Positions 5,887-48,929 are shown, counted from the stretch's first letter. The stretch is DNA of 64,000 nt from a virus (IMGVR_UViG_3300036766_002280:54803-118802), one strand, 5' to 3'. Notes: generated from the sequence alone by a model not told the origin. Translations and numbers: made by a program.

Positions 5887-7149
5887 ATGCCCATACAACA
5901 AGTATCTTTCGATGCTAGATCAAAGGTTCCAGTCAAGATCTGGACTAATGATATAGATGTCAAAACAAAAACTCAGTTAGATAATCTTGCAACAATGCCT
6001 TTTATTTTCCCTCATATTGCGGTTATGGCTGATTGCCATCTTGGAAAAGGAGCTACCATTGGATCAGTTATTCCTTGTCGTGGAGCTGTAATTCCTGCAT
6101 CAGTTGGAGTTGATCTTGGATGTGGAATGTCCGCAGCAAAATTGAATTTAAAGGTGGAAGAGCTTCCTGATACTCTTCATCCTGTTCGATTAGAAATTGA
6201 ACGATTAGTTCCTCATGGAAGAAGCGATGGTGGAGGACGAGGAGACTACGGAGCTTGGGGAGACCTTCCTGCTGATGTTGCTCAAGCCTGGTTTCATGAA
6301 CATTGGGGAGGTTCGACTTTACAAGCAAGATTAGATGCCATAGGAGTAGTTCATCCAGGTATTGTAAAAAAGCCTGTTAACGCGGAAAGGCATCTTGGAA
6401 CTCTTGGAACAGGAAATCATTTTGTAGAAGTGTGCTTTGATGAAAACAATGATATATGGGTTATGTTACATTCTGGTAGCCGTGGCATTGGCAACCGTAT
6501 TGGAACATATTTTATCGAATTAGCAAAGAAAGATATGAAGAAGTGGTTTATCAACTTACCGGATGAAGATCTTGCTTATCTGCCTGAAGGGTCTGATAAT
6601 TTCAATGATTATGTTCAAGCTGTGTCATGGGCTCAGGACTTTGCGAAGGCAAACAGAGAAATCATGCTGAAAAGAACTTTACGGGCGTTGTCAACTACTA
6701 TTCCTGTTTACAGAGACGGGCATAAAGATCTTCTGGTTCAGGATTCGATCATAGATTGTCATCATAACTATTTGATTCAAGAACATCACTTCGATCAAAA
6801 TGTCTGGGTTACCCGCAAGGGGGCAATTCGAGCACGGGTGGGAGATCTTGGGATTATACCCGGAAGTATGGGCACGGGTAGTTTTATTGTGGAAGGTAAG
6901 GGAAATCTTCAATCGTTTCACTCATGCTCCCACGGGGCAGGCAGAAGAATGAGTCGTGGAGAAGCTGCGCGTACCTTTACTGTTGAAGATCTTATAAAGC
7001 AAACGGATGGAATTGAATGCAAAAAGGATTTAAGCATTATCGACGAAATACCGGGAGCTTACAAAGATATTTATACAGTAATGGAAAATCAAAGTGATTT
7101 GGTTTCAATTAAGCATAAACTTCTGCAGATTATAAACGTAAAAGGGTAA
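5887..7149 (+). CDS. rtcB: RtcB-family RNA 3'-phosphate ligase
   Basis: Motifs GTLGTGNHFVEV, HSGSRGIGN, CHHNY and HSCSHGAGR. Length 420 aa is typical. RBS gaggag. Confidence 0.85.
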   Translation: MPIQQVSFDARSKVPVKIWTNDIDVKTKTQLDNLATMPFIFPHIAVMADCHLGKGATIGSVIPCRGAVIPASVGVDLGCGMSAAKLNLKVEELPDTLHPVRLEIERLVPHGRSDGGGRGDYGAWGDLPADVAQAWFHEHWGGSTLQARLDAIGVVHPGIVKKPVNAERHLGTLGTGNHFVEVCFDENNDIWVMLHSGSRGIGNRIGTYFIELAKKDMKKWFINLPDEDLAYLPEGSDNFNDYVQAVSWAQDFAKANREIMLKRTLRALSTTIPVYRDGHKDLLVQDSIIDCHHNYLIQEHHFDQNVWVTRKGAIRARVGDLGIIPGSMGTGSFIVEGKGNLQSFHSCSHGAGRRMSRGEAARTFTVEDLIKQTDGIECKKDLSIIDEIPGAYKDIYTVMENQSDLVSIKHKLLQIINVKG

Positions 7150-7211
7150 TCAAAAGTATAATAAATCAAAAAATCAAAAGTATATTTGATAAAATAACAA
7201 AGGAGAGTAAA

Positions 7212-7808
7212 ATGGTAAAATGGATTGCACTTGGAATTCTGGGAATTTTTGTATTAGTTGGAATGGGTACTTGTAGTTTTGGGGTGGAGACCTATAATTC
7301 TCTGGTGGCTGAAAGAGAAATGGTTAAACAAAAACTATCTCAGGTTCAGAATGTTTATCAACGACGTAATGATTTACTTCCAAATCTTGTTGAGATTGTT
7401 TCAGGTTATGCAAAGCACGAGCATAATACTTTGACAGATGTTATTACGGCAAGAAGTAAAGCAAGTGCTATTACAATTGATCCTTCAAAAGTTACTCCAA
7501 AACAGTTAGCGGCATTTCAAAGTTCTCAGGGTGAAATCAGTCAAGCTCTTGGTCGTTTAATGGTGGTATCAGAGCAGTACCCTAACTTGAAAGCTGATAC
7601 TCAGTTTATCAACTTACAATCCCAGGTAGAAGGAACGGAAAATCGTATTGCTGTGGAAAGAAGAGAATTTAACTTAGCTGCACAAAGGTTTGATACTCAT
7701 ATCGCTATATTTCCAACAATGATAATTGCTAGAGCTTTTGCTTTTGTTGAATACCCATATTTTCAAGCAGAAGTCGGCGTAGAAAAAGCACCCAAAATTA
7801 AGTTCTAA
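7212..7808 (+). CDS. lemA: LemA family membrane protein
   Basis: N-terminal TM helix. YNSLVAERE...YQRRNDLLPNLVEIVSGYAKHEHNTLTDV is the LemA signature. Confidence 0.8.
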   Translation: MVKWIALGILGIFVLVGMGTCSFGVETYNSLVAEREMVKQKLSQVQNVYQRRNDLLPNLVEIVSGYAKHEHNTLTDVITARSKASAITIDPSKVTPKQLAAFQSSQGEISQALGRLMVVSEQYPNLKADTQFINLQSQVEGTENRIAVERREFNLAAQRFDTHIAIFPTMIIARAFAFVEYPYFQAEVGVEKAPKIKF

Positions 7809-7819
7809 AAAGGAAATAA

Positions 7820-8371
7820 ATGCAAAACAGTAATCATCTTCGTTTGATGGAAGCTATGGAAGAATATCGGGATCAACTTAATTTGACTAGATGCGACTTC
7901 CGAGTAATCTATCCTTATAATGCTGAAATAAGATCAATGGAACATTTATTTAGAATTGTAAATTATCCTGACTTTTCTGTAGAAGAAATAATTGAGCAGC
8001 TTATTTTTTGGAAGACAGTATTGGAATCAACGAGAGGTTGTGTTTCTAGTGTGATTGAATGCGTGAAACAAAATTCAAGTAGCCCGCCTTGTTGTGTTAT
8101 AGGTCCAGCAACTTATTCGGCAGCTGATTTTGCACCTATTTCACAGGAGCAAGAAAGAGCTTTTAGAATTGTTTCGGACATTAGATTTGCTCAGAACCTA
8201 GATTGGCCATCAACTCCTTCTAGACAACGGTATAATTGTAGTTTTTGCTCTGAAAAAGATCTTGAGAATTTTTACACTTCTAAGAGAGGAAATATTGCTT
8301 GTCCAAAATGCTTCAAAGAACGGGAGGCAAGGCATCTTGCCAAGGAGAAAAAAGTAAATGCAAACATTTGA
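7820..8371 (+). CDS. hypothetical protein with C-terminal zinc ribbon
   Basis: CSFCSEKD...CPKC motif. Confidence 0.45.
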   Translation: MQNSNHLRLMEAMEEYRDQLNLTRCDFRVIYPYNAEIRSMEHLFRIVNYPDFSVEEIIEQLIFWKTVLESTRGCVSSVIECVKQNSSSPPCCVIGPATYSAADFAPISQEQERAFRIVSDIRFAQNLDWPSTPSRQRYNCSFCSEKDLENFYTSKRGNIACPKCFKEREARHLAKEKKVNANI

Positions 8372-8507
8372 TGTTACTCTTACAATGAAGGTCCTGGCTG
8401 AGACAGAAAAAGAAGCTGAAAAAGAATTGAATCGCATGATTAACGATATGGACTACTTTGTTACCCTCGTTAAGGATTCAGTTTCCTTACATTTGTCACA
8501 GGAATAG
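8358..8507 (+). CDS. hypothetical small protein (49 aa)
   Basis: RBS aaggagaaaaaagtaaATG. Below the ORF track cutoff. Confidence 0.35.
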   Translation: MQTFDVTLTMKVLAETEKEAEKELNRMINDMDYFVTLVKDSVSLHLSQE

Positions 8508-8508
8508 A

Positions 8509-9225
8509 ATGAGACTTCGTTTACTTTCGATTTTGATTTGGCTAATAAGTTTTTCTACGTTCTCTTCAGCAGGAGAGTATGACCATCCAGAAGGTAGAGT
8601 AAATGATTTTGCTCATATTTTAAGCATCAGAACGAAGAATATACTGGAAGCAAGATTACGTGACTTTGATAAAAAAACAAGTGTAGAAATTATTATTGTT
8701 ACTCTTCCAAAGTTAGATGGCAGGCCAATCGAAGATGTTACTATCGAAATTGCAAAGAAGTGGAAGATTGGTAAAAAGGATAAAAATAATGGAGTTCTTT
8801 TCACAATTGCTCCACATGATCATAAAGCAAGATTGGAAGTTGGCTACGGTCTAGAACCTATTATAACTGATGCCACTGCGAAAGGTATTTTACACAATGA
8901 TGTATTACCTTATTTTAAGAAAAGTGATTGGGATGGAGGAATAACTGCCGGGATCGATAAAGTTATGGAGCTTGTATCGAAGGATAAAACTTTAGCAGGA
9001 GTGATCTTTACCGATACTCTTGAAAAAGATTTATCGCTTTCAGGCTGGGAAGTGTTCTGGATTGCTTTAGGGGTAGCAATTCTTCTTCTGATAATGCTTG
9101 CTATTTTTGGAGTGGATGGCCTAGCTTTCATTGGCATCATATTGAATGCTATTTTGTCTGGTCGAAAAGATAAAGGATATTCAGGAAAAGGTGGTGGATT
9201 TGGAGGTGGAGGTTCTAGTGATTAA
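8509..9225 (+). CDS. TPM-domain (TLP18.3/Psb32-like) protein with C-terminal TM and Gly-rich tail
   Basis: Signal-like N-terminus MRLRLLSILIWLISFSTFSSA when started at the ATG at 8509. TPM-like core, TM helix and GGGFGGGG tail. Sits directly after LemA, a common pairing. Confidence 0.6.
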   Translation: MRLRLLSILIWLISFSTFSSAGEYDHPEGRVNDFAHILSIRTKNILEARLRDFDKKTSVEIIIVTLPKLDGRPIEDVTIEIAKKWKIGKKDKNNGVLFTIAPHDHKARLEVGYGLEPIITDATAKGILHNDVLPYFKKSDWDGGITAGIDKVMELVSKDKTLAGVIFTDTLEKDLSLSGWEVFWIALGVAILLLIMLAIFGVDGLAFIGIILNAILSGRKDKGYSGKGGGFGGGGSSD

Positions 9226-9487
9226 GAATTTAATTGTAATTGTTATCGTAGGTTTGGCACTATGGAGCTGCGAAGATACTGGTCCTCTTAAAGAAGAAAC
9301 TTCGAATAATCCAGATTATCATGTAGCTTTTCTTTTTGAGTACGAGCACTGTCGAGTTTATCGTTTTCATGATAAGCGGCACTATCATTTCTTTACAAAT
9401 TGCTCCGGTACAATGTCAGATCTTGCTCAAAATAAGAATAGTATTTATCCTGATGAAATTCCAACCAATCACCAACCACGGAGGTAA
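9219..9487 (+). CDS. putative lipoprotein
   Basis: GTG start after GGAGG. Signal VIKNLIVIVIVGLALWSC. Confidence 0.3.
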
Positions 9488-9489
9488 AA

Positions 9490-9825
9490 ATGAATAAAAA
9501 GCACTATCACAAAAGCTGTGGAGGCTTATTAACTTTAAAACAGGGAGATCTTCGTTGTTCCAGACATGGGGTTATTAAACGAGGAATTAAACATAAGGAA
9601 GGAGATTCTTTAGATGACTCGACATTACTTGGATTCTTGGGAGGATTTTTGGCTGGTGAAATACTGTCTAGTTCCGTTTTTAGTTCTGCTGGGGACGATG
9701 ACAGTTCTTATTCTGGGGGTGGTGGCGATAGTGGTGGTGGCGGTTCTTCTGATAGTTGGAGTGACTCTTCAAGTGGCGGCGGTAGTGATTCTGGCTCCGG
9801 TGCTGGCGGCACGGGAGGGGATTAA
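9490..9825 (+). CDS. Gly/Ser/Asp-rich low-complexity protein with N-terminal Cys/His cluster
   Basis: RBS ggaggtaaaaATG. The overlapping hydrophobic frame 9614..9853 is considered less likely. Confidence 0.4.
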   Translation: MNKKHYHKSCGGLLTLKQGDLRCSRHGVIKRGIKHKEGDSLDDSTLLGFLGGFLAGEILSSSVFSSAGDDDSSYSGGGGDSGGGGSSDSWSDSSSGGGSDSGSGAGGTGGD

Positions 9826-9852
9826 AGCAATCGTAAAGGCATTCAGAAAATA

Positions 9853-10104
9853 ATGTCCGATAATAAAATTCTTATCTCCAAAGTAAAGCAAGCCGTTAAT
9901 CTTTCTCTCTACGAAGCGGGAAAGATTCTGTATGAAAGTTTTTGTGGTTTACCCGAATACGAAGTTGTCGGAGACAAAGTGGTTAGAAAAATTTCGTGGG
10001 AAAAGTTATCAGCCAAGTCTCAGGAGCTTTACATGGGTTTGGCATCAGCTTTGATACAAGAGCAAATGAAAAGATTAAAACTGGATTTTGAAGAATTTTA
10101 TTAA
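9853..10104 (+). CDS. hypothetical protein
   Basis: 83-aa ORF. Confidence 0.4.
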   Translation: MSDNKILISKVKQAVNLSLYEAGKILYESFCGLPEYEVVGDKVVRKISWEKLSAKSQELYMGLASALIQEQMKRLKLDFEEFY

Positions 10105-10129
10105 AATAAAAGATTTTTCTTGATTTTGG

Positions 10130-10159
10130 TAAACTGGTTATATTATAATATGATTTTTA
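10130..10159 (+). promoter_or_regulatory. sigma70-like promoter (cassette variant)
   Basis: ttgatt ... tataat, about 15 bp upstream of the 10174 ATG. Confidence 0.45.
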
Positions 10160-10173
10160 CTTGGAATTAGAAA

Positions 10174-10575
10174 ATGAAAGTAATTGATAAAATTAATTTA
10201 TCTGGATTTTTAACAGGCATGTCAAGAGGGGTTGTTGTTCTTGATGAGAATTTGATTGTATTAAAAGATTCTTTGAGGGACGAGCACATCAAAGTAATTA
10301 TTCCAGAAAGGTTTTTAACAGATGATGCTATAAAACATCAACTTCTTTCTCATCGAATTTTGATTACAAATAATTCAGCAGATTTTGTAGAGGATGCTAC
10401 TGCTATTGAGTATGGAATTATTGCTACTGAAAATATCAAGTTCAAGGATAATTTGAAACTGTCAAAAATGATTTCAAAAGCTATAGTAAAGTTTGATCTC
10501 TGGTCTCATCAATCTGGTTTTATTTTAACGTTACAATCAGATGGCAAACATGATTTTAAGGTTCTTCCACGGTAA
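10174..10575 (+). CDS. DUF5615/Mut7-C-like PIN-fold protein (paralog of 5385..5828)
   Basis: VVLDENLIVLKDSLRDEHIKV...RILITNNSADFVED. Confidence 0.45.
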   Translation: MKVIDKINLSGFLTGMSRGVVVLDENLIVLKDSLRDEHIKVIIPERFLTDDAIKHQLLSHRILITNNSADFVEDATAIEYGIIATENIKFKDNLKLSKMISKAIVKFDLWSHQSGFILTLQSDGKHDFKVLPR

Positions 10576-10581
10576 AGGAAC

Positions 10582-11547
10582 ATGACAAATTTCAAAGAAA
10601 AAACTTATGATGTTGGCGTAATTATCGGAAGATTTCAGGTACCTGAGCTTCACGATGCACATAAGTATTTGATTGATCGTGTGATTGCAAAACACAAACG
10701 AGTTATTATTCTAATTGGAGTAACATCAACTCTCGGCACAAAAAGTAATCCACTTGATTTTCCTTCAAGAGTTGGGCTGTTTAAAGAGTATTTAACGAAA
10801 TTTGAAACAAGAATAATTCTTCATCCACTAACTGATGTGCCGGGAAATGATGAGGTCTGGAGTAAACAACTAGATCGTATCGTCAGAAGCGTTATTCCTC
10901 TTGGCACAGTTTCGCTCTACGGCGGAAGAGATTCTTTTATTAGGCATTACTCAGGTGGATTTGATACCTACGAGTTAGGATTTGAAAGCGATTCAGAGGG
11001 AAAGAAAATGAGAAAAGAATGTAGTCAAGTTCTTATTGATAGTAGAGATTTTAGAGCAGGTCAAATCTATCAGTCTCAAAATCAATTTCCAAAAGTATTT
11101 CCTACAGTTGATATCGCAGTGGTTCGACAGGGAGACATTGGCTTAGAGGTCTTAATGGGACTAAAGCCAAATCATAATGGCTTTAGTTTTCCCGGTGGGT
11201 TTGCGGACCCTACAGATGAGAACTACCAAGAAACAGCTAGAAGAGAATTATCGGAAGAAGTGGATGTGGAAATTGATTTATTTCTTCGATGTGTCGGGAG
11301 CTATCGAATAGCTGATCCACGTTACACTGGAGAAGAAAGAATTATAACAACTTTGTTTCTAGCTGATTATGTTTTTGGATCTGGGGCACCAAAATCTGAG
11401 TTCATAGAAACAGAATGGTTTAAGTTAGATCCTTCAAATTTAGGATTTGTGGCGGACAACCACAAACAATTATTTTTGGATATAGTTCAGTTTTGTAGAG
11501 ATTTTAATATCAAAAGGAAGACAAAAAGTAAGGAAGGAAGAGTTTGA
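10582..11547 (+). CDS. bifunctional NMN adenylyltransferase / Nudix hydrolase (NadM/NatV-like)
   Basis: N-terminal nucleotidyltransferase GRFQVPELHDAH (GRFQPxHxGH-like). C-terminal Nudix box GGFADPTDENYQETARRELSEEVDV. Confidence 0.75.
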   Translation: MTNFKEKTYDVGVIIGRFQVPELHDAHKYLIDRVIAKHKRVIILIGVTSTLGTKSNPLDFPSRVGLFKEYLTKFETRIILHPLTDVPGNDEVWSKQLDRIVRSVIPLGTVSLYGGRDSFIRHYSGGFDTYELGFESDSEGKKMRKECSQVLIDSRDFRAGQIYQSQNQFPKVFPTVDIAVVRQGDIGLEVLMGLKPNHNGFSFPGGFADPTDENYQETARRELSEEVDVEIDLFLRCVGSYRIADPRYTGEERIITTLFLADYVFGSGAPKSEFIETEWFKLDPSNLGFVADNHKQLFLDIVQFCRDFNIKRKTKSKEGRV

Positions 11548-12941
11548 AACTTAATACCAAAGCAAAATCAGACGTACTCACCCACGGTGGAGGAAATGCA
11601 AAATGGGTATCACCAGAACTGATGTTAAAGCGATCTGTTTGTGCCTGCCTTTTATGGGAAAATGAATTTTACGAAGATGGAGAAACCATTACTAAAAGAA
11701 TCAAATCCTTAGTTCCACAGTGTGATCCTCAGTTTGTTTCTGAGCTTGCAATTGAGGCAAGAACAGTAATGAATCTCCGTCATGTTCCTTTACTGCTTGC
11801 AGTGGAAATGACCAAGTATGCTATACACAAGAAGTATGTAGCCATGACCTTGGAAAAGATTATTCAACGTCCTGATGAAATTACTGAGTATCTGGCAATT
11901 TACTTCGGAGGAAGCGATAGAAGGGTTCTGAAAAGTAAACTTTCTAAACAAAGTAAAAAAGGTTTACGAGCGGCATTCTACAAGTTCAATGAATACTCCT
12001 TAGCGAAGTACAACCAAGATGGAGGAATCAAGTTACGAGATGCACTGTTTCTTGTTCATGCCAATCCAAAAACTGAGGCTCAGGCAGATCTGTTCAAAAG
12101 ATTAGCTGACAAGGAATTAAAAACTCCTGATACTTGGGAAGTGGCACTTAGTGCTGGTGCAAATAAGAAAGAAACTTTTCTTCGTTTGATACAAGAAAAG
12201 AAACTTGGGGCACTTGCGTTTCTTAAGAATCTTCGTGGCATGCATGAATCTGGAGTTTCCGAATCAGTTGTAGCCGAATACATAGCGAATGTGGATCTGT
12301 CCAAAGTATTACCATTTAGGTTTATTTCAGCGGCAAGGATGGTTCCTCAGTGGGAATCCGTAATAGACATCGGATTCTTAAGACGTACCACCCAGATGCC
12401 GAAATTGAAAGGAAAAACGGTAGTAATTATCGATGTCTCTGGAAGTATGTATGGTTCTAGGGTGAGTGCAAAATCTGATATGACCAGAGCCTTAGCGGCT
12501 TGTGCTTTAGCGGCTATTTGCAGAGAACTTTGTGAAACCTCTTCTATCTATGCAACAGCAGGTAATGATGGAATGAGAATTCATAAGACTGTTTTAGTTC
12601 CAAGCCGTCATGGAATGGCTTTAGTGGATGCAATTCATTCCCTGTCTCATCCTCTTGGTGGAGGTGGTATCTTTCTTAAACAGGTTATGGACTATGTTCG
12701 TACTCAAGAAAAGACAGCAGATAGAACAATCATTATCACGGATGAGCAGGATTGTTCTCAAGGGGAAGAAGATAGTCCTTCTCGGGCGCTGCCTCTTGGC
12801 ACTGGATATCTGATTAACGTTGCTTCTAATCAATTCGGAATTGGGTATGATAGGTGGACTCACTTTGATGGTTTTTCTGAATCAATCATGACCTATCTTA
12901 TCGAAGCTGAAAAATGGAAATTAGCTTACAATAGAAAATAG
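11544..12941 (+). CDS. rsr: Ro60-like (TROVE) protein with C-terminal vWA/MIDAS domain
   Basis: C-terminal vWA with MIDAS DVSGSM, then ...TDEQD. Length 465 aa and N-terminal region are compatible with TROVE. A structured ncRNA candidate follows immediately. Confidence 0.5.
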   Translation: MKLNTKAKSDVLTHGGGNAKWVSPELMLKRSVCACLLWENEFYEDGETITKRIKSLVPQCDPQFVSELAIEARTVMNLRHVPLLLAVEMTKYAIHKKYVAMTLEKIIQRPDEITEYLAIYFGGSDRRVLKSKLSKQSKKGLRAAFYKFNEYSLAKYNQDGGIKLRDALFLVHANPKTEAQADLFKRLADKELKTPDTWEVALSAGANKKETFLRLIQEKKLGALAFLKNLRGMHESGVSESVVAEYIANVDLSKVLPFRFISAARMVPQWESVIDIGFLRRTTQMPKLKGKTVVIIDVSGSMYGSRVSAKSDMTRALAACALAAICRELCETSSIYATAGNDGMRIHKTVLVPSRHGMALVDAIHSLSHPLGGGGIFLKQVMDYVRTQEKTADRTIIITDEQDCSQGEEDSPSRALPLGTGYLINVASNQFGIGYDRWTHFDGFSESIMTYLIEAEKWKLAYNRK

Positions 12942-12944
12942 CTC

Positions 12945-13440
12945 GAGCAGCGTAGATATGGGTTACTTCGATAAAGTTGGTTCAAATCCAATCGACCCTA
13001 GTGCGAAGGCAATAGGATTTGGTAAACCTGTAACGAATGTTCTCTCTAGCAATAAATTGATTCTTGAGCGGTGTAGAATTCAGGTACTTCCCGTTAATGA
13101 GCTTTTCCTGAAGTCGATTGTTCCCTCAAGACAAGAACTTTCAAATATAGCGGGCGGTGTAGACAAGGGTTACTTCATACGAGAACTGCCGTCTCGTAAG
13201 AGACTCAGAGGTTCGATTCCTCTCCGAGCCGAAAGGCCAGGTGGCGAAGTGGTTAACGCAGCAGATAGAATCCCTTATCGATTGTTCCCCCGCTAGGCAA
13301 GGCAAGGCAGGACAGACAATCAGTGGATAAGTATCCAGGTTGTTCCGAGCCTTTAGGTGCTGGCGCAGTGTAGAATTCAGGTACTTCCCGTTAAGGAGCC
13401 TTTCCTGAAGTCGATTGTTCTCGCCAGCACTTTTTGTTTT
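12945..13440 (+). ncRNA. Y-RNA-like structured ncRNA(s) with tRNA-like modules
   Basis: Non-coding gap after the rsr-like gene. Two near-identical 55-nt hairpin modules (13069-13124 and 13366-13420). T-arm mimic agaggTTCGATTcctct (13207-13223). D-arm-like ggccaggtggcgaAGTGGTTAAcgc (13235-13260). Terminal stem gtgctggcg/cgccagcac plus TTTTTGTTTT. Confidence 0.45.
13357..13440 (+). terminator. rho-independent terminator closing the ncRNA region
   Basis: gtgctggcg ... cgccagcac stem followed by a T-run at 13431-13440. Confidence 0.55.
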
Positions 13441-13474
13441 AAGGAATACTTTCCAGTAGAACTTTTGGAGGAGT

Positions 13475-14077
13475 ATGGAGCAATTTAGTATTTCAGTAAA
13501 AGATTATTTAAAAAAATTAATGGCTGTTGGTAATTTTGTAAGAGCTGAGAAATCAAGTTTTTCAGATTCACTAGATTATTTAAAATCTAAAAATTTCGAT
13601 TTTGTTTTGATAGGTGGTCTGGCAACATCACATTATTCTCCTCCTAGACTTACGGAAGATATTGATATTTTTTTAGAAAATGAACAAAAATTGGAAGAAT
13701 TCAAAAGGCTTTCTTTAGGAGAAGTTAAATGGATTAGAAAACATGCATTTATTTGTTCTGGAATTGAAGTAGAAGTTTTAACTCCTGAATTTTTAAGTAT
13801 TCCTTCTAAAATTTCGGATTATGTTTTTAGTACTAAAGTAGAAAAATCTTCTGGACTTTTTATTCCTTCTCCAGAAGGTGTTCTTCTGCTAAAACTTGAA
13901 GCCTTGAGAGATTTTCCAGACAAGCAAGATATCTACAATATAATTAAAACTCAAGGACAAAGTTTAGATCTTGAAATTGTAAAAAGTTTAACATCAGAAA
14001 AAGGAAGATTATTTTTAGACGAGGTAGTTAAAAATTTAAAGATTTTTCTAGAAGATCGATTAGAAGAAGAAGCTTAA
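13475..14077 (+). CDS. hypothetical protein, possible nucleotidyltransferase fold
   Basis: FVLIGGLATSHY...RLTEDIDIFL resembles minimal-NTase/AbiEii-like motifs. Weak. Confidence 0.3.
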   Translation: MEQFSISVKDYLKKLMAVGNFVRAEKSSFSDSLDYLKSKNFDFVLIGGLATSHYSPPRLTEDIDIFLENEQKLEEFKRLSLGEVKWIRKHAFICSGIEVEVLTPEFLSIPSKISDYVFSTKVEKSSGLFIPSPEGVLLLKLEALRDFPDKQDIYNIIKTQGQSLDLEIVKSLTSEKGRLFLDEVVKNLKIFLEDRLEEEA

Positions 14078-14097
14078 CAAAGGAAAGGAAGAAACGT

Positions 14098-15495
14098 ATG
14101 CGTAAAAATCTTTTGCTTTTGACGGATAGTTACAAGTTTTCTCACTGGAAACAATATCCTCCGGGAACGGAAAAAGTATTTTCTTACTTTGAATCAAGAG
14201 GTGGAGATTTTGAACGAACCATATTCTTTGGGCTGCAATACTTTTTGAAGGAATATCTTGAAGGATGCTCTTTTTCAGAAACAGATATTGCGCAAGCTAG
14301 AGTCTATGTTGAAGCACATATTGGACCTGGCATCTTCAACGAAGAGGGCTGGCAATATATTTTGAGGGAGCACAAGGGTAAGTTACCAGTCAAAATCCAG
14401 GCCGTCCCAGAAGGAATGTCAGTTCCAACGTCAAACGTTTTGATGACGATCGAAAATACGGATCCAAAATGCTTTTGGTTGACCAACTATCTGGAGACTT
14501 TACTTGTTCAAGTTTGGTATCCTACAACTGTGGCTACCCTTTCAAGAGAAATGAAAGAAGTTCTAACGGGGTATCTGGAAGAAACAGGAGATCCTGCTTT
14601 AGTTAATTTTAAACTTCATGATTTTGGATTCAGAGGAGTTAGTTCGGTAGAAAGTGCTGGTATCGGTGGAGCAGCTCATCTTGTAAACTTTATGGGCACG
14701 GATACAGTTCAAGCACTTGTGGTAGCAAATGATTATTACAATGAGCCAATGGCTGGATTTAGTATTCCTGCGGCAGAGCATTCTACGATTACAAGTTGGG
14801 GGCGTCATAATGAGGTCAAGGCCTTCGATAACATGATTACTCAATTTCCAAAAGGATTGGTTGCTGTGGTATCGGACTCTTACGATATCTATCGAGCCTG
14901 CGCTGTTCTTTGGGGAACGGAATTAAGAGACAAGGTTCTTGCCCGGGATGGAGTACTCATCATCAGACCTGATTCTGGGGAAGCAACTGAAGTTATTCCA
15001 CGAGTTTTAAAAACTCTTGGAAGTGCCTTTGGATATGAATTGAACAAGAAAGGTTACAAAGTTCTTAACCCAAAAGTAAGAGTTATTCAAGGAGATGGAG
15101 TTGATTACGATTCCATGCATGAGATTCTGTCCGTAATGAAACGGGATGGATGGAGTGCTGATAATATCGCCTTCGGAATGGGAGGGGCTTTACTGCAGAA
15201 GTTGAACCGGGATACGCAAAAGTTTGCCTTTAAATGCTCGAGCGTCACTATCAATGGGATAGAGCAGGATGTATTTAAAGAACCAGCGGATACTCCTTGG
15301 AAGAAATCAAAAGCAGGTAGACTTAAACTTTGCAAGGGATCGATGGGTGGGAAAATTGTTTGGTATACCACCCAAGAATCTACTCCGTATCATACTCATT
15401 CAAAGGATATGCTAGAAACTGTATTTTTGAATGGAGAAATTGTAAAGACGTATTCATTTGCAGAGGTTCGCGCCAATGCGAAGATAGAGGAATAA
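14098..15495 (+). CDS. nadV: nicotinamide phosphoribosyltransferase (NAMPT/NadV)
   Basis: 465 aa. FGFRGVSS, VVSDSYDIY, IRPDSGEATEV and QGDGVD are typical of the NAMPT/PBEF family. Confidence 0.85.
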   Translation: MRKNLLLLTDSYKFSHWKQYPPGTEKVFSYFESRGGDFERTIFFGLQYFLKEYLEGCSFSETDIAQARVYVEAHIGPGIFNEEGWQYILREHKGKLPVKIQAVPEGMSVPTSNVLMTIENTDPKCFWLTNYLETLLVQVWYPTTVATLSREMKEVLTGYLEETGDPALVNFKLHDFGFRGVSSVESAGIGGAAHLVNFMGTDTVQALVVANDYYNEPMAGFSIPAAEHSTITSWGRHNEVKAFDNMITQFPKGLVAVVSDSYDIYRACAVLWGTELRDKVLARDGVLIIRPDSGEATEVIPRVLKTLGSAFGYELNKKGYKVLNPKVRVIQGDGVDYDSMHEILSVMKRDGWSADNIAFGMGGALLQKLNRDTQKFAFKCSSVTINGIEQDVFKEPADTPWKKSKAGRLKLCKGSMGGKIVWYTTQESTPYHTHSKDMLETVFLNGEIVKTYSFAEVRANAKIEE

Positions 15496-15500
15496 TAGTA

Positions 15501-15641
15501 ATGTATAGAGTTATTTTTTGCGATTACACGATATTGGAAAAACAGTTGAATGAAGCAGAAAAAAAGGGTTACGAAGTAATTCATCTTAGCTATGATTCGA
15601 ACGAATCACAATTCATAATTGTTTGTAAAAATTCTGAATAG
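15501..15641 (+). CDS. hypothetical small protein (46 aa)
   Basis: RBS gaggaataatagtaATG. Confidence 0.25.
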   Translation: MYRVIFCDYTILEKQLNEAEKKGYEVIHLSYDSNESQFIIVCKNSE

Positions 15642-15643
15642 TT

Positions 15644-15731
15644 GGAAGGCTGGCTGAGTCCGGTTTAAAGCGCTAGTTTTGAGAACTAGAGAAGGTAAAA
15701 TCTTCCGTGGGTTCGAATCCCACGCCTTCCT
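15644..15731 (+). tRNA. tRNA-Ser (anticodon TGA), type II with long variable arm
   Basis: Acceptor ggaaggc/gccttcc. Anticodon stem ctagt/actag with loop ttTGAga. Variable arm gaag-gtaaaat-cttc. T-arm gtgggTTCGAATcccac. No encoded CCA. Confidence 0.7.
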
Positions 15732-15743
15732 TGCTTGCTTGAA

Positions 15744-15820
15744 TGGACTGTAGCTCAGCTGGCTAGAGCAGTTTCCCTATAAGAGACAGGTCGTTGGTTC
15801 GAGTCCAACCAGTCCAACCA
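15744..15820 (+). tRNA. tRNA, anticodon TAT (Ile-like), CCA encoded
   Basis: Acceptor tggactg/cagtcca + a + CCA. D-arm gctc-agctggcta-gagc. Anticodon stem gtttc/gagac with loop ccTATaa (unusual C33). T-arm gttggTTCGAGTccaac. Confidence 0.6.
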
Positions 15821-15857
15821 TAAGATTTTTTAGTGATAAAACTTACAAAGGAGAACA

Positions 15858-16370
15858 ATGCTGATACCATTTAGAGATGAAGCAGAAACGAACGCCTGGA
15901 ATGAAATGCACCTTGTTTTTTGGAAGTATGAATTGTCGGCGGTTCAAGTTCTTGGAATAGCCAACTATCTTGAATATACCACAAGGCTGCTGATTTCAAA
16001 AACAGAAAGTGACCATAATAAAGCAGAACGGATTGAGAAGTGGATTGACGGCATAACCATATCTAGAGCATCAAAAGCTCAAAATATCGACCCACCTTCC
16101 AAAGAATGCAGAGCTACCACAAAAGCCATCGCAATAATAATTTTCAGAAAGCACAATCTTATTCCAGATGCTATCGATACTGAAAAAGAAGGTCTTCTCC
16201 TGCGGTATGATAACGCCATCAATCATCGTAATATGTTTATCGAAGTTACAAAAGATCTGACAACCAATGCTGTGGTAGAGGAAAACAGTGTAATTCTTTC
16301 AGCTCCTAAAAATATTCTGCTTACAAACGACGATATCAAACAGATAATTGAAGTCTGGACGGAACCCTAA
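15858..16370 (+). CDS. hypothetical protein
   Basis: RBS aaaggagaacaATG. Confidence 0.5.
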   Translation: MLIPFRDEAETNAWNEMHLVFWKYELSAVQVLGIANYLEYTTRLLISKTESDHNKAERIEKWIDGITISRASKAQNIDPPSKECRATTKAIAIIIFRKHNLIPDAIDTEKEGLLLRYDNAINHRNMFIEVTKDLTTNAVVEENSVILSAPKNILLTNDDIKQIIEVWTEP

Positions 16371-42132: not shown

Positions 42133-42840
42133 ATGGGTAAATTCATAGACATGATAGGGCAAGTTTTTGGTAGATGGACTGTATTGTCTTACCATCATAC
42201 CGATAAATGGGGAAATGCCTATTGGTTGTGTCGCTGTATCTGCGGCACAGAAGTTGTTGTCGCAGGGCACAATCTTCGACGTGGTCATTCTAGATCTTGT
42301 GGTTGTTTGAATAGAGAAATAGTAAAAGAGTTAGCAAAAGAAAAATTTACAACTCACGGATTATCAGAGCATCCACTTTACGGTGTCTGGGGGATGATGA
42401 ATGACCGATGTAACAATCCAGACAACAAAGATTACCACAACTACGGTGGCCGAACTGTTCCGATCGTTACGTGCGATCGATGGCATCAGGACAATCCAGA
42501 TGGACTACAAAACTTCATTACGGACATGTATCCAACATATAAACCAGGCCTGACCATAGAAAGAACAGAAAACGACTCAGACTACAACGCCGAAAACTGC
42601 ACCTGGGCCACCATGAAAGAACAATCTAATAATAAACGAAATACTAGGTTTGTTGCCTACCAAGGCAAAGAAATAACATTAACTCAGTTGATAGACATAA
42701 CAGGTACGACAATTCCCAGACATGTTTTAGATGATAGAATCTTTGTATGGAAATGGCCTATCGAGAAAGCATTGACAACTCCAGTACGTAAGAGTACAAA
42801 AACGAAGGAGAACGAAAGAGTAAGAAATCAAAATGAGTGA
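42133..42840 (+). mobile_element. freestanding homing-endonuclease-like gene, copy 1
   Basis: MGKFIDMIGQVFGRWTVL...WLCRCICGTEVVV...SCGC, then NYGGR...NCTWATMKEQSNN. Three about 85-90% identical copies in the window. Confidence 0.5.
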
Positions 42841-46569: not shown

Positions 46570-47550
46570 ATGTTTGACGTAAGAAAATTTTTAGCCTTTC
46601 ATAATATTGAGATTAGAGAAAAGGGTCATAACGTTGGTAAGGGCAACATAAATGTCTGTTGTCCTTTTTGCATTAAAAGTGGAAGGGGTGACGACGATTT
46701 TCATATGGGAATTAACCTGACTACGCTTGTTTACGGGTGCTGGAGGGACTCGGTTCATCGAGGTAGAAAAATTGAACGATTGGTCCGGGCTTTAATAGAT
46801 TGCTCTTATGAAGAGGCAAATACAATCGTTCATGGGGTTGCTCTGCTGGAGGAAACAGATTTTGCCAGTTTGACTAAAAATTTATGGAATGAAAACAACG
46901 AAGAGCAAGAGACGAAAAAAAATATAAAAAAGGACTTGATTTTTCCAAAAGACTTCGTTAATATATGTCCTTCGGGTTTGACCTCCAGATTTTATTCTTA
47001 CCTTCAAAGTAGAGGATTCGATGACGTTTCCTTGCTCATTAAAAAATACGAATTACGATGCTGCCTATCTGGAAAATGGAAAAATAGGGTTATTATTCCG
47101 TTGTTCTTTGAAGGGGAGTTAGTTTCCTGGACAGGTAGAAGTCTTTATGATGATGCTTTTTTAAGGTACCAAGATTTAAGCGTAGAAGAAAGTATTATTC
47201 ATCCTAAACAGTTTTTGCTCAATTACGATAATCTACTAAAAGGAGGTGAAATTTTATTCGTTTGTGAAGGACCATTCGATGCTTTGAAAGTTGATTTCTA
47301 TATGCCAGAAAGTCATCGCTCAACGTGCCTATTCACTAAGGCTATGACGGAGAATCAACTTTACTTACTTAGGAATCTAAGCAAAGTTTTTAAATGTGTT
47401 AAAATTTTACTTGACGAAGATGCTTTGAGTTCTTCAATTAATATAGCGGGAGAACTGGCCTTTCTTAAGAATGTAGAATTTTTGTCTTTACCTGATGAAA
47501 TCAAAGACCCGGGCAATCTCACAAAACAACAAGTGCTATGTCTTATGTAG
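46570..47550 (+). CDS. DNA primase (CHC2 zinc finger + TOPRIM)
   Basis: CPFCIKSGRGDDDFHM..GCWRDSVH and LFVCEGPFDALKV. Confidence 0.7.
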   Translation: MFDVRKFLAFHNIEIREKGHNVGKGNINVCCPFCIKSGRGDDDFHMGINLTTLVYGCWRDSVHRGRKIERLVRALIDCSYEEANTIVHGVALLEETDFASLTKNLWNENNEEQETKKNIKKDLIFPKDFVNICPSGLTSRFYSYLQSRGFDDVSLLIKKYELRCCLSGKWKNRVIIPLFFEGELVSWTGRSLYDDAFLRYQDLSVEESIIHPKQFLLNYDNLLKGGEILFVCEGPFDALKVDFYMPESHRSTCLFTKAMTENQLYLLRNLSKVFKCVKILLDEDALSSSINIAGELAFLKNVEFLSLPDEIKDPGNLTKQQVLCLM

Positions 47551-47563
47551 AAGGAATTATTTT

Positions 47564-48202: not shown

Positions 48203-48247
48203 TTAAGAAGAACTAGTATAGTTTTTGATTTTTTGATGGAGGTAAGG

Positions 48248-48925: not shown

Positions 48926-48929
48926 CGAT

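What the first reader, a model, noticed from the sequence alone, without database searches (positions are those of the whole stretch)
5887..15820. Ro60-like TROVE/vWA protein + Y-RNA-like tRNA-mimic region + RtcB + two tRNAs
A TROVE/vWA protein (MIDAS DVSGSM, 465 aa) is followed by a ~480-nt ORF-poor region with tRNA-like modules. RtcB ligase lies 4.5 kb upstream and two tRNAs lie 2.2 kb downstream. In Salmonella and Deinococcus, rsr, Y RNA and rtcB form one operon, and Y RNAs contain tRNA-like domains. In phages such a set is usually read as RNA repair or counter-defence against anticodon nucleases.
Basis: partly seen in the sequence, partly recalled or inferred. Interest (0 to 1): 0.6.

Follow-up and report, generated by a model that had tools for sequence, protein, structure and literature searches.

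The report
Phage Ro60 protein with four Y RNAs
A giant-phage genome segment encodes a Ro60-type ring-shaped RNA-binding protein followed directly by four small structured Y RNA genes, two of them carrying tRNA-like arms; this kind of RNA-handling module is already known from bacteria and a few phages, but standard annotation missed the RNAs here.

Summary
ORF 11544-12941 is a full-length Ro60/Rsr orthologue. It passes the Pfam TROVE threshold, has a DVSGS MIDAS motif, and its AlphaFold model matches only Ro60 rings, best the Thermus phage phiLo phiRo60.

The 533-nt gap after it holds four tandem Y RNA genes on the same strand: 12942-13049, 13063-13130, 13149-13294 and 13360-13427. Each has a covarying closing stem, a bulged pyrimidine, a GG/CC step, a conserved internal loop (5' YGYA, 3' GAUUGUU) and a second covarying stem. 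Module 3 carries the YrlA-type T arm, acceptor-like hairpin and D arm. Module 1 has a clear T arm only. Modules 2 and 4 are short.

A covariance model built here finds these four and nothing else in the 64 kb. It also finds about 490 copies beside TROVE genes in about 180 phage, metagenome and bacterial loci, all on the gene's strand.

Rfam's YrlA model scores module 3 at only 15.9 bits against a threshold of 69. RtcB lies 4.4 kb away with eight or so ORFs between, and is adjacent to such arrays in only 15 of 169 related loci. NAD+ salvage genes flank rsr.

Verdict: a new, unannotated member of a known kind. Moderate to low interest.

The parts
11544..12941 (+). rsr: Ro60/Rsr orthologue (TROVE HEAT-repeat ring plus C-terminal vWA domain with MIDAS motif DVSGS at residues 297-301)
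   Evidence: Pfam TROVE 64.9 bits against a gathering score of 23. PHROG 850 'RNA-binding protein', E = 8e-37. Best PDB sequence hit is Thermus phage phiLo phiRo60 (9KOP/9L5Y), E = 5.5e-19. AlphaFold2 model pLDDT 85.5; the top 13 Foldseek PDB hits are all Ro60, with TM 0.72 to phiRo60 and 0.69 to D. radiodurans Rsr. D297, S299, G300 and S301 are invariant in 30 homologues.
12942..13049 (+). Y RNA module 1 (108 nt). Starts at the base after the rsr stop codon. Has a T-arm-like hairpin at 12976-12992 (loop UUCAAAU); the D-like region is degenerate.
   Evidence: R1 score 31.2 bits, E = 6e-5 in 337 kb and 1.4e-7 locally; it was not used to build the model. Aligns with the long modules.
13063..13130 (+). 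Y RNA module 2 (68 nt, short form with no tRNA-like part): CUUGAG/CUCAAG closing stem, GGUGUAGA, UUCAGG/CCUGAA second stem, UCGAUUGUUCC
   Evidence: R1 score 65.4 bits (it was a seed of the model). MAFFT alignment A1 with 14 modules from other loci. Predicted fold.
13149..13294 (+). Y RNA module 3 (146 nt, YrlA-like long form): V hairpin 13179-13197, T arm 13207-13223 (loop UUCGAUU), acceptor-like hairpin about 13224-13241, D arm 13244-13259 (loop AAGUGGUUAA)
   Evidence: R1 score 51.0 bits, E = 4e-10; not a seed. Aligns over its whole length with 16 long modules from other loci. RNAalifold on that alignment recovers both stems, the T arm and the acceptor-like hairpin. Rfam YrlA scores only 15.9 bits.
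13360..13427 (+). Y RNA module 4 (68 nt, short form, 88% identical to module 2). Its closing stem can extend to 13357-13430 (GUGCUGGCG/CGCCAGCAC).
   Evidence: R1 score 61.8 bits (it was a seed). Direct repeat D1. Fold z-score -3.96. The G-C to A-U change at the GG/CC step relative to module 2 keeps the pair.
13431..13440 (+). U-run (UUUUUGUUUU) directly after the module 4 closing stem; a possible intrinsic terminator for the natV-rsr-Y RNA transcript
   Evidence: Read directly from the sequence. A run of four or more T follows 40 of 201 related modules within 14 nt, against 10 of 201 upstream. Function is inferred.
12958..13296 (+). Spurious 112-aa ORF lying over modules 1-3
   Evidence: Called as a gene in public annotation. 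No Pfam hit. Its only match among 5.8 billion proteins is itself. No tblastn match in 169 related loci.
5887..7149 (+). RtcB RNA ligase; a possible but loosely linked functional partner
   Evidence: Pfam RtcB E = 2e-122, full length. RtcB homologues lie directly beside the TROVE/Y RNA array in 6 of 80 metagenome and 9 of 64 bacterial loci.
10582..11547 (+). NatV-like bifunctional NMN adenylyltransferase/Nudix protein; its stop overlaps the rsr start (TTGA)
   Evidence: Pfam NUDIX 45 bits. NCBIfam NMNAT/Nudix families at E = 2e-19 but far below their cut-offs. PHROG cytidyltransferase plus MutT.
13475..14077 (+). 200-aa minimal nucleotidyltransferase-fold protein directly after the Y RNA array; not a conserved partner
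   Evidence: Weak Pfam matches to DUF2204, DUF6036 and AbiEii. Only three homologues found, none next to a TROVE gene.
14098..15495 (+). NadV/NAMPT (nicotinamide phosphoribosyltransferase)
   Evidence: Pfam NAPRTase E = 4.5e-58 plus NAMPT_N E = 3e-38. NCBIfam NF006629 scores 633 bits against a cut-off of 405.
15644..15731 (+). tRNA-Ser(UGA)
   Evidence: ARAGORN. Rfam tRNA 56.4 bits.
15744..15820 (+). tRNA-Ile(UAU)
   Evidence: ARAGORN. Rfam tRNA 58.3 bits.

Best explanation
This is a phage-borne Rsr (Ro60)-Y RNA module.

**Shown here.** The 465-aa protein is a Ro60 ring protein. The four downstream elements are Y RNA genes with a conserved, covarying Ro60-binding-type stem and internal loop.

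**Inferred from sequence.** natV, rsr and the four RNAs are probably made as one transcript. The evidence is the TTGA overlap of natV and rsr, module 1 starting at the base after the rsr stop, gaps of 13 to 65 nt between modules, and a U-run after module 4. The transcript would then be cut into individual RNAs.

**Inferred from the family's biochemistry** (Xenopus Ro60, D. radiodurans Rsr/Yrn1/PNPase, Salmonella YrlA, Thermus phage phiLo phiRo60).
- Each Y RNA binds the outer face of the Rsr ring through the conserved element: 5' G-G-Y-G-Y-A-G-A with 3' U-C-G-A-U-U-G-U-U-C-C.
- The variable upper part acts as the effector-binding or gating module. It is a tRNA-like fold in module 3, a partial one in module 1, and a plain hairpin in modules 2 and 4.
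- The most likely effector is the host 3'-5' exoribonuclease PNPase. The phage ribonucleoprotein would then redirect or dampen host RNA decay and handle damaged or misfolded structured RNA during infection.

The nearby RtcB ligase, two tRNA genes and NAD+ salvage genes place it in an auxiliary, probably counter-defence, gene block.
For: **Protein.** TROVE above the Pfam threshold, MIDAS motif DVSGS, and PHROG 850. The closest solved relative is phage phiRo60 by sequence and by fold, and all 13 significant PDB fold hits are Ro60.

**RNA.**
- Four modules share motifs, with compensatory changes in the closing stems.
- On the MAFFT alignment A1, 92% of cells are paired against 40-50% when the partner is slid. 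All 17 pairs show changes on both sides, and 0 of 500 shuffles reach the observed values.
- On 150 further copies (alignment A3, fitted to the model), 95% are paired against 40-52%.
- RNAalifold independently recovers both stems, the T arm and the acceptor-like hairpin on the long modules.
- R1 hits number 4 in the window, 57 in viral loci, 201 in metagenome loci, 210 in bacterial loci, 11 in three contigs that carry the two closest TROVE proteins (two further contigs in that search, fetched for the NTase homologues, gave none) and 15 in cultured phages. Every one is on the TROVE strand and almost all are within about 1.5 kb of the gene.
- Related long modules hit Rfam YrlA at 31-37 bits, E = 1e-4 to 7e-3.

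**Literature.**
- YrlA-type Y RNAs lie next to Ro60 genes in 254 bacteria and 22 phages; defining motifs are GNCGAAN0-1G and YUAY (PMC4201824).
- phiRo60 binds two phage-encoded Y-like RNAs, forms ternary complexes with host PNPase and slows its activity (PMC12135203).
- Y RNAs lie 3' of rsr in Salmonella (bioRxiv 10.1101/312249).
Against: - No expression, processing or binding data exist for this phage.
- Rfam's curated YrlA model does not recognise the window RNAs: 15.9 bits against a gathering score of 69.
- The 5' motif departs from the published GNCGAAN0-1G at one or two positions (GCGUAGA, GGUGUAGA, AGUGUAGA).
- Module 1 scores low (31 bits), has one mismatch in its closing stem and a degenerate D region, so it may be decaying.
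- The effector is unknown. The PNPase link is extrapolated from three other systems. In phiLo the effect was inhibition of PNPase, whereas in Deinococcus it was specialisation for structured RNA, so the direction of the effect cannot be predicted.
- The host is unknown.
Confidence: 0.85

Rival explanations
1. RNA-repair and decoy reading. Rsr and the Y RNAs act as cofactors of the phage RtcB ligase to reseal tRNAs cut by host anticodon nucleases. The tRNA-like Y RNAs act as competitive decoys for those nucleases, and the two phage tRNAs replace depleted host species.
For: - RtcB is present 4.4 kb upstream on the same strand.
- RtcB sits directly beside the TROVE/Y RNA array in 15 of 144 metagenome and bacterial loci.
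- The Salmonella rsr-yrlBA-rtcBA operon is induced by cleaved tRNAs, and its authors suggest YrlA may inhibit the anticodon nuclease (PMC7790460).
- Jumbo-phage TROVE proteins have been read as RNA-repair platforms (PMC7824862).
- tRNA genes are common near TROVE genes in the viral loci.
Against: - RtcB is separated from rsr by about eight ORFs, including unrelated LemA and TPM genes.
- None of the 25 IMG/VR relatives has RtcB within 6 kb.
- All genes in the window are on the + strand, so shared orientation carries no information.
- No RtcA was found among the ORFs scanned.
- Two of the four Y RNAs have no tRNA-like part.
- No role of Rsr or Y RNA in ligation has been shown in any system.
Confidence: 0.3
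2. The intergenic repeats are not Y RNAs. They are decayed tRNA genes, or generic phage intergenic stem-loops such as terminators or regulatory repeats.
For: - T-arm-like sequences occur in modules 1 and 3.
- A U-run follows module 4.
- In other phages, pieces of such modules have been annotated or called as tRNAs: CcrColossus 'tRNA-Gln', and an ARAGORN tRNA-Asn call in phage Olaya.
Against: - ARAGORN and Rfam call no tRNA in 12942-13474.
- The T arm precedes the D arm, the permuted order typical of YrlA, and both are enclosed by the conserved stem and internal loop.
- Modules 2 and 4 have no tRNA-like part yet share the same ends.
- The element occurs about 490 times, only beside TROVE genes and only on their strand, and nowhere else in the 64-kb window.
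Confidence: 0.03
3. The region encodes the 112-aa protein of ORF 12958-13296, and the repeats are features of coding sequence.
For: An ATG-initiated ORF exists and is called by public gene callers.
Against: - Its only match among 5.8 billion proteins is itself.
- No Pfam hit.
- It covers only modules 1-3 of a four-module repeat whose conservation follows RNA pairing, not codons.
- A similar orphan ORF is called on the opposite strand over the array of a related locus, L178.
Confidence: 0.02

Closest known systems
Thermus phage phiLo phiRo60 with Yrl1/Yrl2 (PDB 9KOP, 9L5Y; Hu et al., NAR 2025, PMC12135203)
   Same: A phage-encoded Ro60 ring with a vWA/MIDAS domain. It is the best sequence hit (E = 5.5e-19) and the best fold hit (TM 0.72) to the window protein. 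Several Y-like RNAs are encoded next to the gene. It was shown experimentally to bind them and to form PNPase complexes.
   Different: Only 22% identity. The phiLo RNAs lie upstream, number two, and were defined by a CGAA motif in a bulge. Here four RNAs lie downstream, with GYGUAGA on the 5' side and CGA(U/A)UGUUC on the 3' side, and two carry tRNA-like arms. The phage type, the likely host and the gene neighbourhood all differ.
Salmonella Typhimurium rsr-yrlB-yrlA-rtcBA operon (Chen 2013/2014; Hughes 2020, PMC7790460)
   Same: Same gene order: rsr followed 3' by Y RNAs. It pairs a short Y RNA without a tRNA-like domain (YrlB) with a long tRNA-like one (YrlA). An RtcB ligase lies in the neighbourhood.
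   Different: In the window RtcB is upstream, 4.4 kb away, with unrelated genes between. No RtcA or RtcR was seen. There are four Y RNAs rather than two. The flanking genes are NAD+ salvage genes. The window RNA fails the Rfam YrlA threshold.
Rfam RF02553 YrlA / bacterial YrlA family (Chen et al. 2014, PMC4201824)
   Same: Module 3 has the family's layout: a 5'/3' stem carrying the Ro60-binding motif, YUAY (here UUAC) opening the V region, then T arm, acceptor-like hairpin and D arm with the GG of the D loop. It is encoded within 4 kb of rsr on the same strand.
   Different: It scores 15.9 bits against a gathering score of 69. The 5' motif differs from GNCGAAN0-1G at one or two positions. The 3' strand UCGAUUGUUCC is strongly conserved in this clade, whereas Chen et al. 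recognised only the 5' strand in the Salmonella and M. smegmatis RNAs.
Deinococcus radiodurans Rsr/Yrn1/PNPase (RYPER)
   Same: A Ro60 ring (fold TM 0.69) bound to a modular Y RNA that tethers an exoribonuclease. This is the mechanistic template for the proposed function.
   Different: A separate Y RNA lineage with a different order of tRNA-like elements, in a cellular stress-response context. PNPase involvement is untested here.
Metazoan Ro60 with Y RNAs (for example Xenopus Ro60, PDB 1YVP)
   Same: The same protein fold. The same RNA plan: a long terminal stem with a bulged or internally looped conserved helix plus a variable upper module, and two to four Y RNA species per organism.
   Different: No tRNA-like module in animals. 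Animal Y RNAs are Pol III transcripts with a La-binding U tail. Protein identity is 15-18%.

Membership tests
Ro60/Rsr (TROVE plus vWA ring proteins) | TROVE (HEAT-repeat) domain at or above Pfam's gathering score | tested here: met
   PF05731 scores 64.9 bits against a gathering score of 23. All 120 listed homologues carry PF05731.
Ro60/Rsr (TROVE plus vWA ring proteins) | C-terminal von Willebrand A domain with a MIDAS DxSxS motif | tested here: met
   DVSGS at residues 297-301. D297, S299, G300 and S301 are invariant in 30 homologues. The predicted beta-alpha-beta domain spans 288-442. The Pfam vWA_Ro60 match alone is below threshold: 21.5 against 27.7 bits.
Ro60/Rsr (TROVE plus vWA ring proteins) | Whole-chain fold of solved Ro60 rings | tested here: met
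   AlphaFold2 model with pLDDT 85.5 and pTM 0.80. Foldseek PDB ranks 1-13 are all Ro60: 9KOP TM 0.72, 2NVO 0.69, human 9NEN 0.68, Xenopus 1YVP about 0.6. The next hit has E = 2.5e-3 and TM 0.16.
Ro60/Rsr (TROVE plus vWA ring proteins) | Binds Y RNA and misfolded RNA | not testable with these tools
   Needs EMSA or co-immunoprecipitation.
Y RNA (general) | Encoded next to the Ro60 gene on the same strand (the bacterial and phage rule) | tested here: met
   All four modules lie 1-486 nt after the rsr stop on the + strand. About 490 related copies are all on the TROVE strand.
Y RNA (general) | The 5' and 3' ends pair into a long stem interrupted by a conserved bulge or internal loop, with a variable upper module | tested here: met
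   Closing stem, bulged pyrimidine, GG/CC step, 4 x 7 internal loop, second stem. 92-95% of cells are paired against 40-52% in slid controls, and every pair shows changes on both sides. RNAalifold agrees.
Y RNA (general) | Bound by the cognate Ro60 in vivo | not testable with these tools
   Needs RNP immunoprecipitation from infected cells.
Bacterial YrlA/YrlB-type Y RNA (Chen et al. 2014) | GNCGAAN0-1G motif near the 5' end | tested here: inconclusive
   The window modules read AGCGUAGA, GGUGUAGA, GGUGUAGA and AGUGUAGA, which is one or two departures (C to U, A to U). Relatives in the same R1 family include exact matches, such as GGCGAAGA in L012, and GGUGAAGA.
Bacterial YrlA/YrlB-type Y RNA (Chen et al. 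2014) | Conserved YUAY at the start of the V region | tested here: met
   UUAC in modules 1 and 3. Modules 2 and 4 have GUAC. TACTTC is invariant in alignments A1 and A2.
YrlA (Rfam RF02553) | Score at or above the curated gathering score (69 bits) | tested here: not met
   Module 3 scores 15.9 bits, E = 2.8, and the alignment of its stem is misregistered. The other modules give no hit. Relatives' long modules score 31-37 bits.
YrlA (Rfam RF02553) | tRNA-like domain in the order T arm, acceptor-like hairpin, D arm, with a T loop UUCRAnn and the GG of the D loop | tested here: met
   Module 3: T arm 13207-13223 (UUCGAUU), hairpin about 13224-13241, D arm 13244-13259 (AAGUGGUUAA). It aligns with 16 long relatives, whose T arm covaries. 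Module 1 has only a clear T arm (12976-12992). Modules 2 and 4 have none.
rsr-Y RNA-rtcBA RNA repair operon | RtcB (and RtcA) encoded in the same operon, adjacent to rsr and the Y RNAs | tested here: not met
   RtcB is present but 4.4 kb upstream with about eight intervening ORFs. No RtcA was found among the 46 window ORFs scanned against Pfam, NCBIfam or PHROGs. RtcB is adjacent in 15 of 169 related loci.
NARP2-type phage NAD+ reconstitution (Nampt plus Nmnat/Nudix), considered for the flanking genes only | Nampt plus a bifunctional NMN adenylyltransferase/Nudix protein encoded together | tested here: met
   NAMPT scores 633 bits against a cut-off of 405. The NatV-like ORF has an NMNAT-type N-terminus (E = 2e-19, below the equivalog cut-offs) and a Pfam NUDIX domain (45 bits against 21). 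The pathway is described in bioRxiv 10.1101/2024.02.11.579819. Activity was not tested.

The most novel reading that the evidence does not exclude
The module may be one arm of a single counter-defence operon, natV-rsr-Y RNA x4-NTase-nadV, with RtcB and two tRNAs nearby. In this reading, rebuilding NAD+ and protecting RNA are co-expressed. The tRNA-like Y RNAs would act as decoys for host tRNA-targeting nucleases, while the Rsr/Y RNA particle blocks host PNPase.

A second modest novelty is the short, tRNA-less Y RNAs (modules 2 and 4). They belong to a large unrecognised class, about a third of the roughly 490 copies found here, that shares the Ro60-binding element with YrlA. The arrays in which they occur reach eight copies. 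No current annotation resource detects either.
Probability: 0.15. Interest if true: 0.6.

Novelty: new member of a known kind. Interest (0 to 1): 0.35.

Why it matters
Ro60 and Y RNAs are conserved from bacteria to humans, where Ro60 is a lupus and Sjogren autoantigen, yet their function is still poorly defined. Phage copies are an attractive experimental handle, and only one (Thermus phage phiLo) has been studied.

This window adds a jumbo-phage example (212-kb contig) with four Y RNAs of two architectures, in a context that hints at anti-defence use. That context is translational coupling to NAD+ salvage genes, with RtcB and tRNA genes nearby.

In practice, the work shows three annotation failures:
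- Rfam's YrlA model misses this widespread clade.
- Gene callers place orphan ORFs over the arrays.
- Some GenBank phage records label parts of such RNAs as tRNAs.

The simple covariance model built here recovers about 490 copies with complete strand and position specificity. This is an annotation and family-extension result, not a new kind of system.

Tried and rejected
- **Rfam at gathering threshold on the whole window.** Only the two tRNAs were found.
- **Rfam in E-value mode on 12800-13600.** YrlA gave 15.9 bits with a misregistered stem; the other weak hits are chance.
- **Megablast of 10500-15900 against 50,697 phage records.** No match, so no close cultured relative.
- **Whole-region fold of 12930-13450.** z-score -0.86, uninformative. 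Single-module folds have z-scores of -0.4 to -4.0. Thermodynamics alone would not have supported the RNAs; covariation did.
- **A first regex-plus-stem scan.** Far too unspecific: 261 hits, mostly noise. It was replaced by the covariance model.
- **A suspected fifth mini-module at 13303-13352** (AAGGC...GCCUU, GGACAGA, UUGUUCC). The model does not support it: 2.2 bits with filters off. It is recorded only as a possible remnant or hairpin.
- **Conserved neighbours.** tblastn of 16 neighbouring window proteins against 169 related loci found only RtcB (15 loci) and NatV plus NAMPT (1 locus). The NTase, LemA, TPM and small ORFs are not conserved partners.
- **The NTase.** Three homologues, with no informative PDB or PHROG hit.
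- **Promoter and terminator consensus scans.** At background level.
- **Literature access.** The supplementary tables of Chen et al. 2014 and two Wolin-lab reviews were not available in the library, so I could not check which 22 phages were already listed.

Full report
**1. What is at the coordinates**

The window is a stretch of phage DNA with every sizeable ORF on the + strand. It encodes a family A DNA polymerase, a DnaB-like helicase, a UvsX-like recombinase, a Dda-like helicase, ThyX and a clamp loader. None is closer than about 34% identity to any deposited phage. Exact-sequence look-ups place three of its proteins on a contig of 211,832 bp, which is jumbo-phage size.

- RtcB at 5887-7149 (Pfam E = 2e-122).
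- A 465-aa TROVE protein at 11544-12941.
- tRNA-Ser(UGA) at 15644-15731 and tRNA-Ile(UAU) at 15744-15820.

Between RtcB and the TROVE gene lie LemA, an unknown ORF, a TPM-domain protein, four small orphans and a 321-aa NMNAT/Nudix (NatV-like) protein. After the intergenic stretch come a 200-aa nucleotidyltransferase-fold ORF and a strong NAMPT/NadV.

The NatV-like stop and the TROVE TTG start overlap as TTGA, behind a strong Shine-Dalgarno sequence.

**2. The protein is a Ro60/Rsr orthologue**

- The MIDAS motif DVSGS is present and invariant among 30 homologues.
- PHROG 850 'RNA-binding protein' matches end to end at E = 8e-37.
- The only PDB sequence hits are the crystal and cryo-EM structures of Thermus phage phiLo phiRo60, E = 5.5e-19.
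- An AlphaFold2 model (pLDDT 85.5) gives Foldseek hits 1-13 that are all Ro60: phiRo60 TM 0.72, D. radiodurans Rsr 0.69, human 0.68 and Xenopus about 0.6. A sharp drop follows.
- More than 7,700 homologues exist. The closest is 59% identical, so this lineage is not closely sampled.

**3. The intergenic stretch holds four tandem Y RNA genes**

Reading 12942-13474 shows four units. Each begins with a short stem strand, then G-G/A-Y-G-U-A-G-A, a second stem strand and (U)UACUUC. Each ends with the complementary second strand, UCGA(U/A)UGUUC(C/U)C and the complementary first strand.

The closing stems differ but stay complementary: CUCGAG/CUCUAG, CUUGAG/CUCAAG, AGCGGG/CCCGCU and CUGGCG/CGCCAG.

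The same architecture turned up next to TROVE genes in 25 IMG/VR loci whose proteins are 41-57% identical.

- A MAFFT alignment of 16 short modules (two from the window) supports a hand-drawn structure. It has an 8-bp closing stem, a bulged pyrimidine, a 2-bp GG/CC step, an internal loop and a 7-bp second stem.
- On that alignment, 92% of cells are paired against 40-50% when the partner is slid. All 17 pairs have changes on both sides, and 0 of 500 shuffles reach any measure.
- The GG/CC step itself covaries. For example, module 2 has G-C where module 4 has A-U.
- RNAalifold on 18 long modules independently returns both stems. It extends the second stem by the G of UAG pairing with the C of UCG, which leaves a 4 x 7 internal loop. 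It also returns a covarying T arm and an acceptor-like hairpin.

**4. Specificity of the model**

Covariance model R1 (68 positions, 15 base pairs) finds exactly four hits in the 64-kb window, all on the + strand:

| Module | Coordinates | Bits | Seed of the model? |
|---|---|---|---|
| 2 | 13063-13130 | 65.4 | yes |
| 4 | 13360-13427 | 61.8 | yes |
| 3 | 13149-13294 | 51.0 | no |
| 1 | 12942-13049 | 31.2 | no |

Elsewhere it finds:
- 57 hits in the 25 viral loci.
- 201 hits in 67 of 80 metagenome loci. Twelve of the 13 empty loci have under 500 nt of upstream sequence.
- 210 hits in 64 bacterial loci from Acidobacteriaceae, Caulobacterales, Hyphomicrobiales and others.
- 11 hits in three contigs that carry the two closest proteins; two NTase-homologue contigs searched in the same call gave none.
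- 15 hits in cultured phages: Xanthomonas phage Olaya 5, Caulobacter phage CcrColossus 8, and crAss-like cr112_1 2. Ralstonia phage RsoM2USA had none.

Every hit is on the TROVE strand. In the metagenome set 194 lie upstream and 7 downstream of the gene, and none lies inside it. Arrays hold 1-8 copies. Lengths are bimodal: 50-80 nt, and 120-140 nt with tRNA-like arms. On 150 of these copies 95% of cells pair, against 40-52% in slid controls.

The window's downstream placement is the minority arrangement. It is shared with L001/L026, L002, the crAss-like phage and Salmonella.

**5. Relation to the known YrlA family**

Chen et al. (PMC4201824) defined bacterial YrlA by three things: a 5' GNCGAAN0-1G motif, a conserved YUAY opening the V region, and T, acceptor-like and D stem-loops in that order. 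They found it within 4 kb of Ro60 on the same strand in 254 bacteria and 22 phages.

- Module 3 has all the structural elements: V hairpin 13179-13197, T arm 13207-13223 with UUCGAUU, hairpin about 13224-13241, and D arm 13244-13259 with AAGUGGUUAA.
- Module 1 has a clear T arm (12976-12992) but a degenerate D region.
- Modules 2 and 4 have a plain hairpin, comparable in that respect to Salmonella YrlB.
- The 5' motif here (GYGUAGA) is one or two substitutions from the published consensus. Some relatives match it exactly.
- Rfam's curated model gives module 3 only 15.9 bits against a gathering score of 69. It gives relatives' long modules 31-37 bits, E = 1e-4 to 7e-3.

So by curated threshold these are not YrlA members. 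By architecture and graded similarity they are a divergent branch of the same family.

**6. Rivals**

- **tRNA genes.** The elements are not tRNA genes. ARAGORN and Rfam call none there, and the arm order is permuted.
- **Coding sequence.** The 112-aa ORF over modules 1-3 is an orphan whose only match is itself. It is nevertheless called in public annotation, and a similar orphan ORF lies on the opposite strand over the array in L178.
- **Fifth module.** A suspected fifth mini-module at 13303-13352 is not supported.

**7. How it probably works**

*Shown:* the identity of the protein, and the conservation and covariation of the RNAs.

*Inferred from sequence:* natV, rsr and the four RNAs form one transcript. 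The evidence is the TTGA overlap, the absence of any gap between the rsr stop and module 1, and gaps of 13-65 nt between modules. The transcript would end at the 9-bp GC-rich extension of the module 4 stem followed by UUUUUGUUUU. Such U-runs follow 20% of related modules, against 5% in the upstream control.

*Inferred from the family:*
- Each Y RNA binds the ring through the conserved loop and helix.
- The upper module engages an effector. In D. radiodurans and Salmonella that effector is PNPase.
- For the one phage studied, phiRo60 plus its Y-like RNAs form ternary complexes with host PNPase and cut its activity by about 70-76% (PMC12135203).

I therefore favour a phage ribonucleoprotein that re-tunes host exoribonucleolytic decay and handles structured or damaged RNA.

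The repair or decoy idea (RtcB cofactor, decoy for an anticodon nuclease) remains open and is not exclusive. RtcB is adjacent to such arrays in 6 of 80 metagenome and 9 of 64 bacterial loci, but in 0 of 25 viral loci, and here it is 4.4 kb away. The Salmonella authors themselves list both possibilities.

**8. Novelty and verdict**

Phage Ro60 genes with adjacent Y RNAs have been known since 2014, were noted in jumbo phages (PMC7824862), and were characterised structurally in 2025.

This locus is a new, unannotated member. Its modest distinguishing points are four tandem RNAs of two architectures placed 3' of rsr, and a position between NARP2-type NAD+ salvage genes. That pathway is described in bioRxiv 10.1101/2024.02.11.579819. 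A similar NatV plus NAMPT neighbourhood recurs in only one other locus, L082.

The broader by-product is a model that recovers about 490 copies that Rfam misses. It also exposes mis-annotations as ORFs or tRNAs. This is useful but not a conceptual surprise. Interest 0.35.

Noticed in passing
window 10582-11547 and 14098-15495: A NatV-like NMNAT/Nudix gene and a strong NAMPT/NadV gene bracket rsr and the Y RNAs, giving NARP2-type NAD+ reconstitution gene content. natV overlaps the rsr start as TTGA. NatV plus NAMPT also lie 3.4 kb upstream of the TROVE gene in locus L082 (197-kb contig).
   Followed up: partly
window 13475-14077: A 200-aa minimal nucleotidyltransferase-fold ORF (weak DUF2204, DUF6036 and AbiEii matches) sits directly after the Y RNA array. 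Only three homologues were found among 5.8 billion proteins, none beside a TROVE gene. In L109-L111 its homologue is followed by a weak HAD_PNKP-domain gene.
   Followed up: partly
L181 2124-2288 (Caulobacter phage CcrColossus) and L180 2823-2958 (Xanthomonas phage Olaya): In CcrColossus the GenBank feature 'tRNA-Gln' (L181 2128-2195) lies inside one of eight Y RNA modules upstream of its TROVE gene, and ARAGORN does not call it. In Olaya, ARAGORN calls a tRNA-Asn (2824-2894) inside a Y RNA module. The tRNA-like parts of Y RNAs are being mislabelled as tRNAs, and none of the four records inspected annotates any Y RNA.
   Followed up: partly
window 12958-13296; L178 7562-7837 (minus strand): Gene callers place orphan 'hypothetical protein' ORFs over Y RNA arrays, on either strand.
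   Followed up: yes
loci L026-L176: Y RNA arrays beside rsr reach 6-8 copies in some metagenome, Acidobacteriaceae and Caulobacterales loci. About a third of the copies are short forms without a tRNA-like domain. I did not find arrays of this size described in the papers I could read.
   Followed up: partly
window 15744-15820: The phage tRNA-Ile has a UAU anticodon rather than the usual bacterial CAU/lysidine solution for AUA codons. ATA makes up 23% of Ile codons in the window's ORFs, and the window's G+C content is 37%.
   Followed up: no
window 7212-9225: A LemA / unknown / TPM-domain gene trio, typical of a bacterial membrane-associated cluster, sits directly after RtcB in a phage genome.
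   Followed up: no
window 42133-42840 and 48918-49622: Two 75%-identical, Cys-rich proteins of about 235 aa with no Pfam match are inserted in the replication module, next to two more ORFs of 230-235 aa (47495-48202 and 48233-48925). They may be homing-endonuclease-like selfish genes.
   Followed up: partly
window 13295-13359: The 65-nt spacer between modules 3 and 4 holds a small hairpin (UGGAU AAGU AUCCA, about 13324-13337) and a degenerate copy of the 3' motif (GGUUGUUCCGAGCC). It may be the remnant of a fifth module, but the model does not support one.
   Followed up: yes
window 61752-62621: A Band-7/SPFH protein is encoded at the far end of the window. The literature (Burroughs and Aravind, cited in bioRxiv 10.1101/312249) links Band-7 proteins, a tRNA-like RNA and RtcB. 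No such RNA was looked for beside it.
   Followed up: no
loci L001, L005, L011, L023 (viral contigs): Clusters of up to 14 tRNA genes lie within a few kb of the TROVE gene in several phage contigs, so rsr and the Y RNAs often sit in or beside phage tRNA islands.
   Followed up: no
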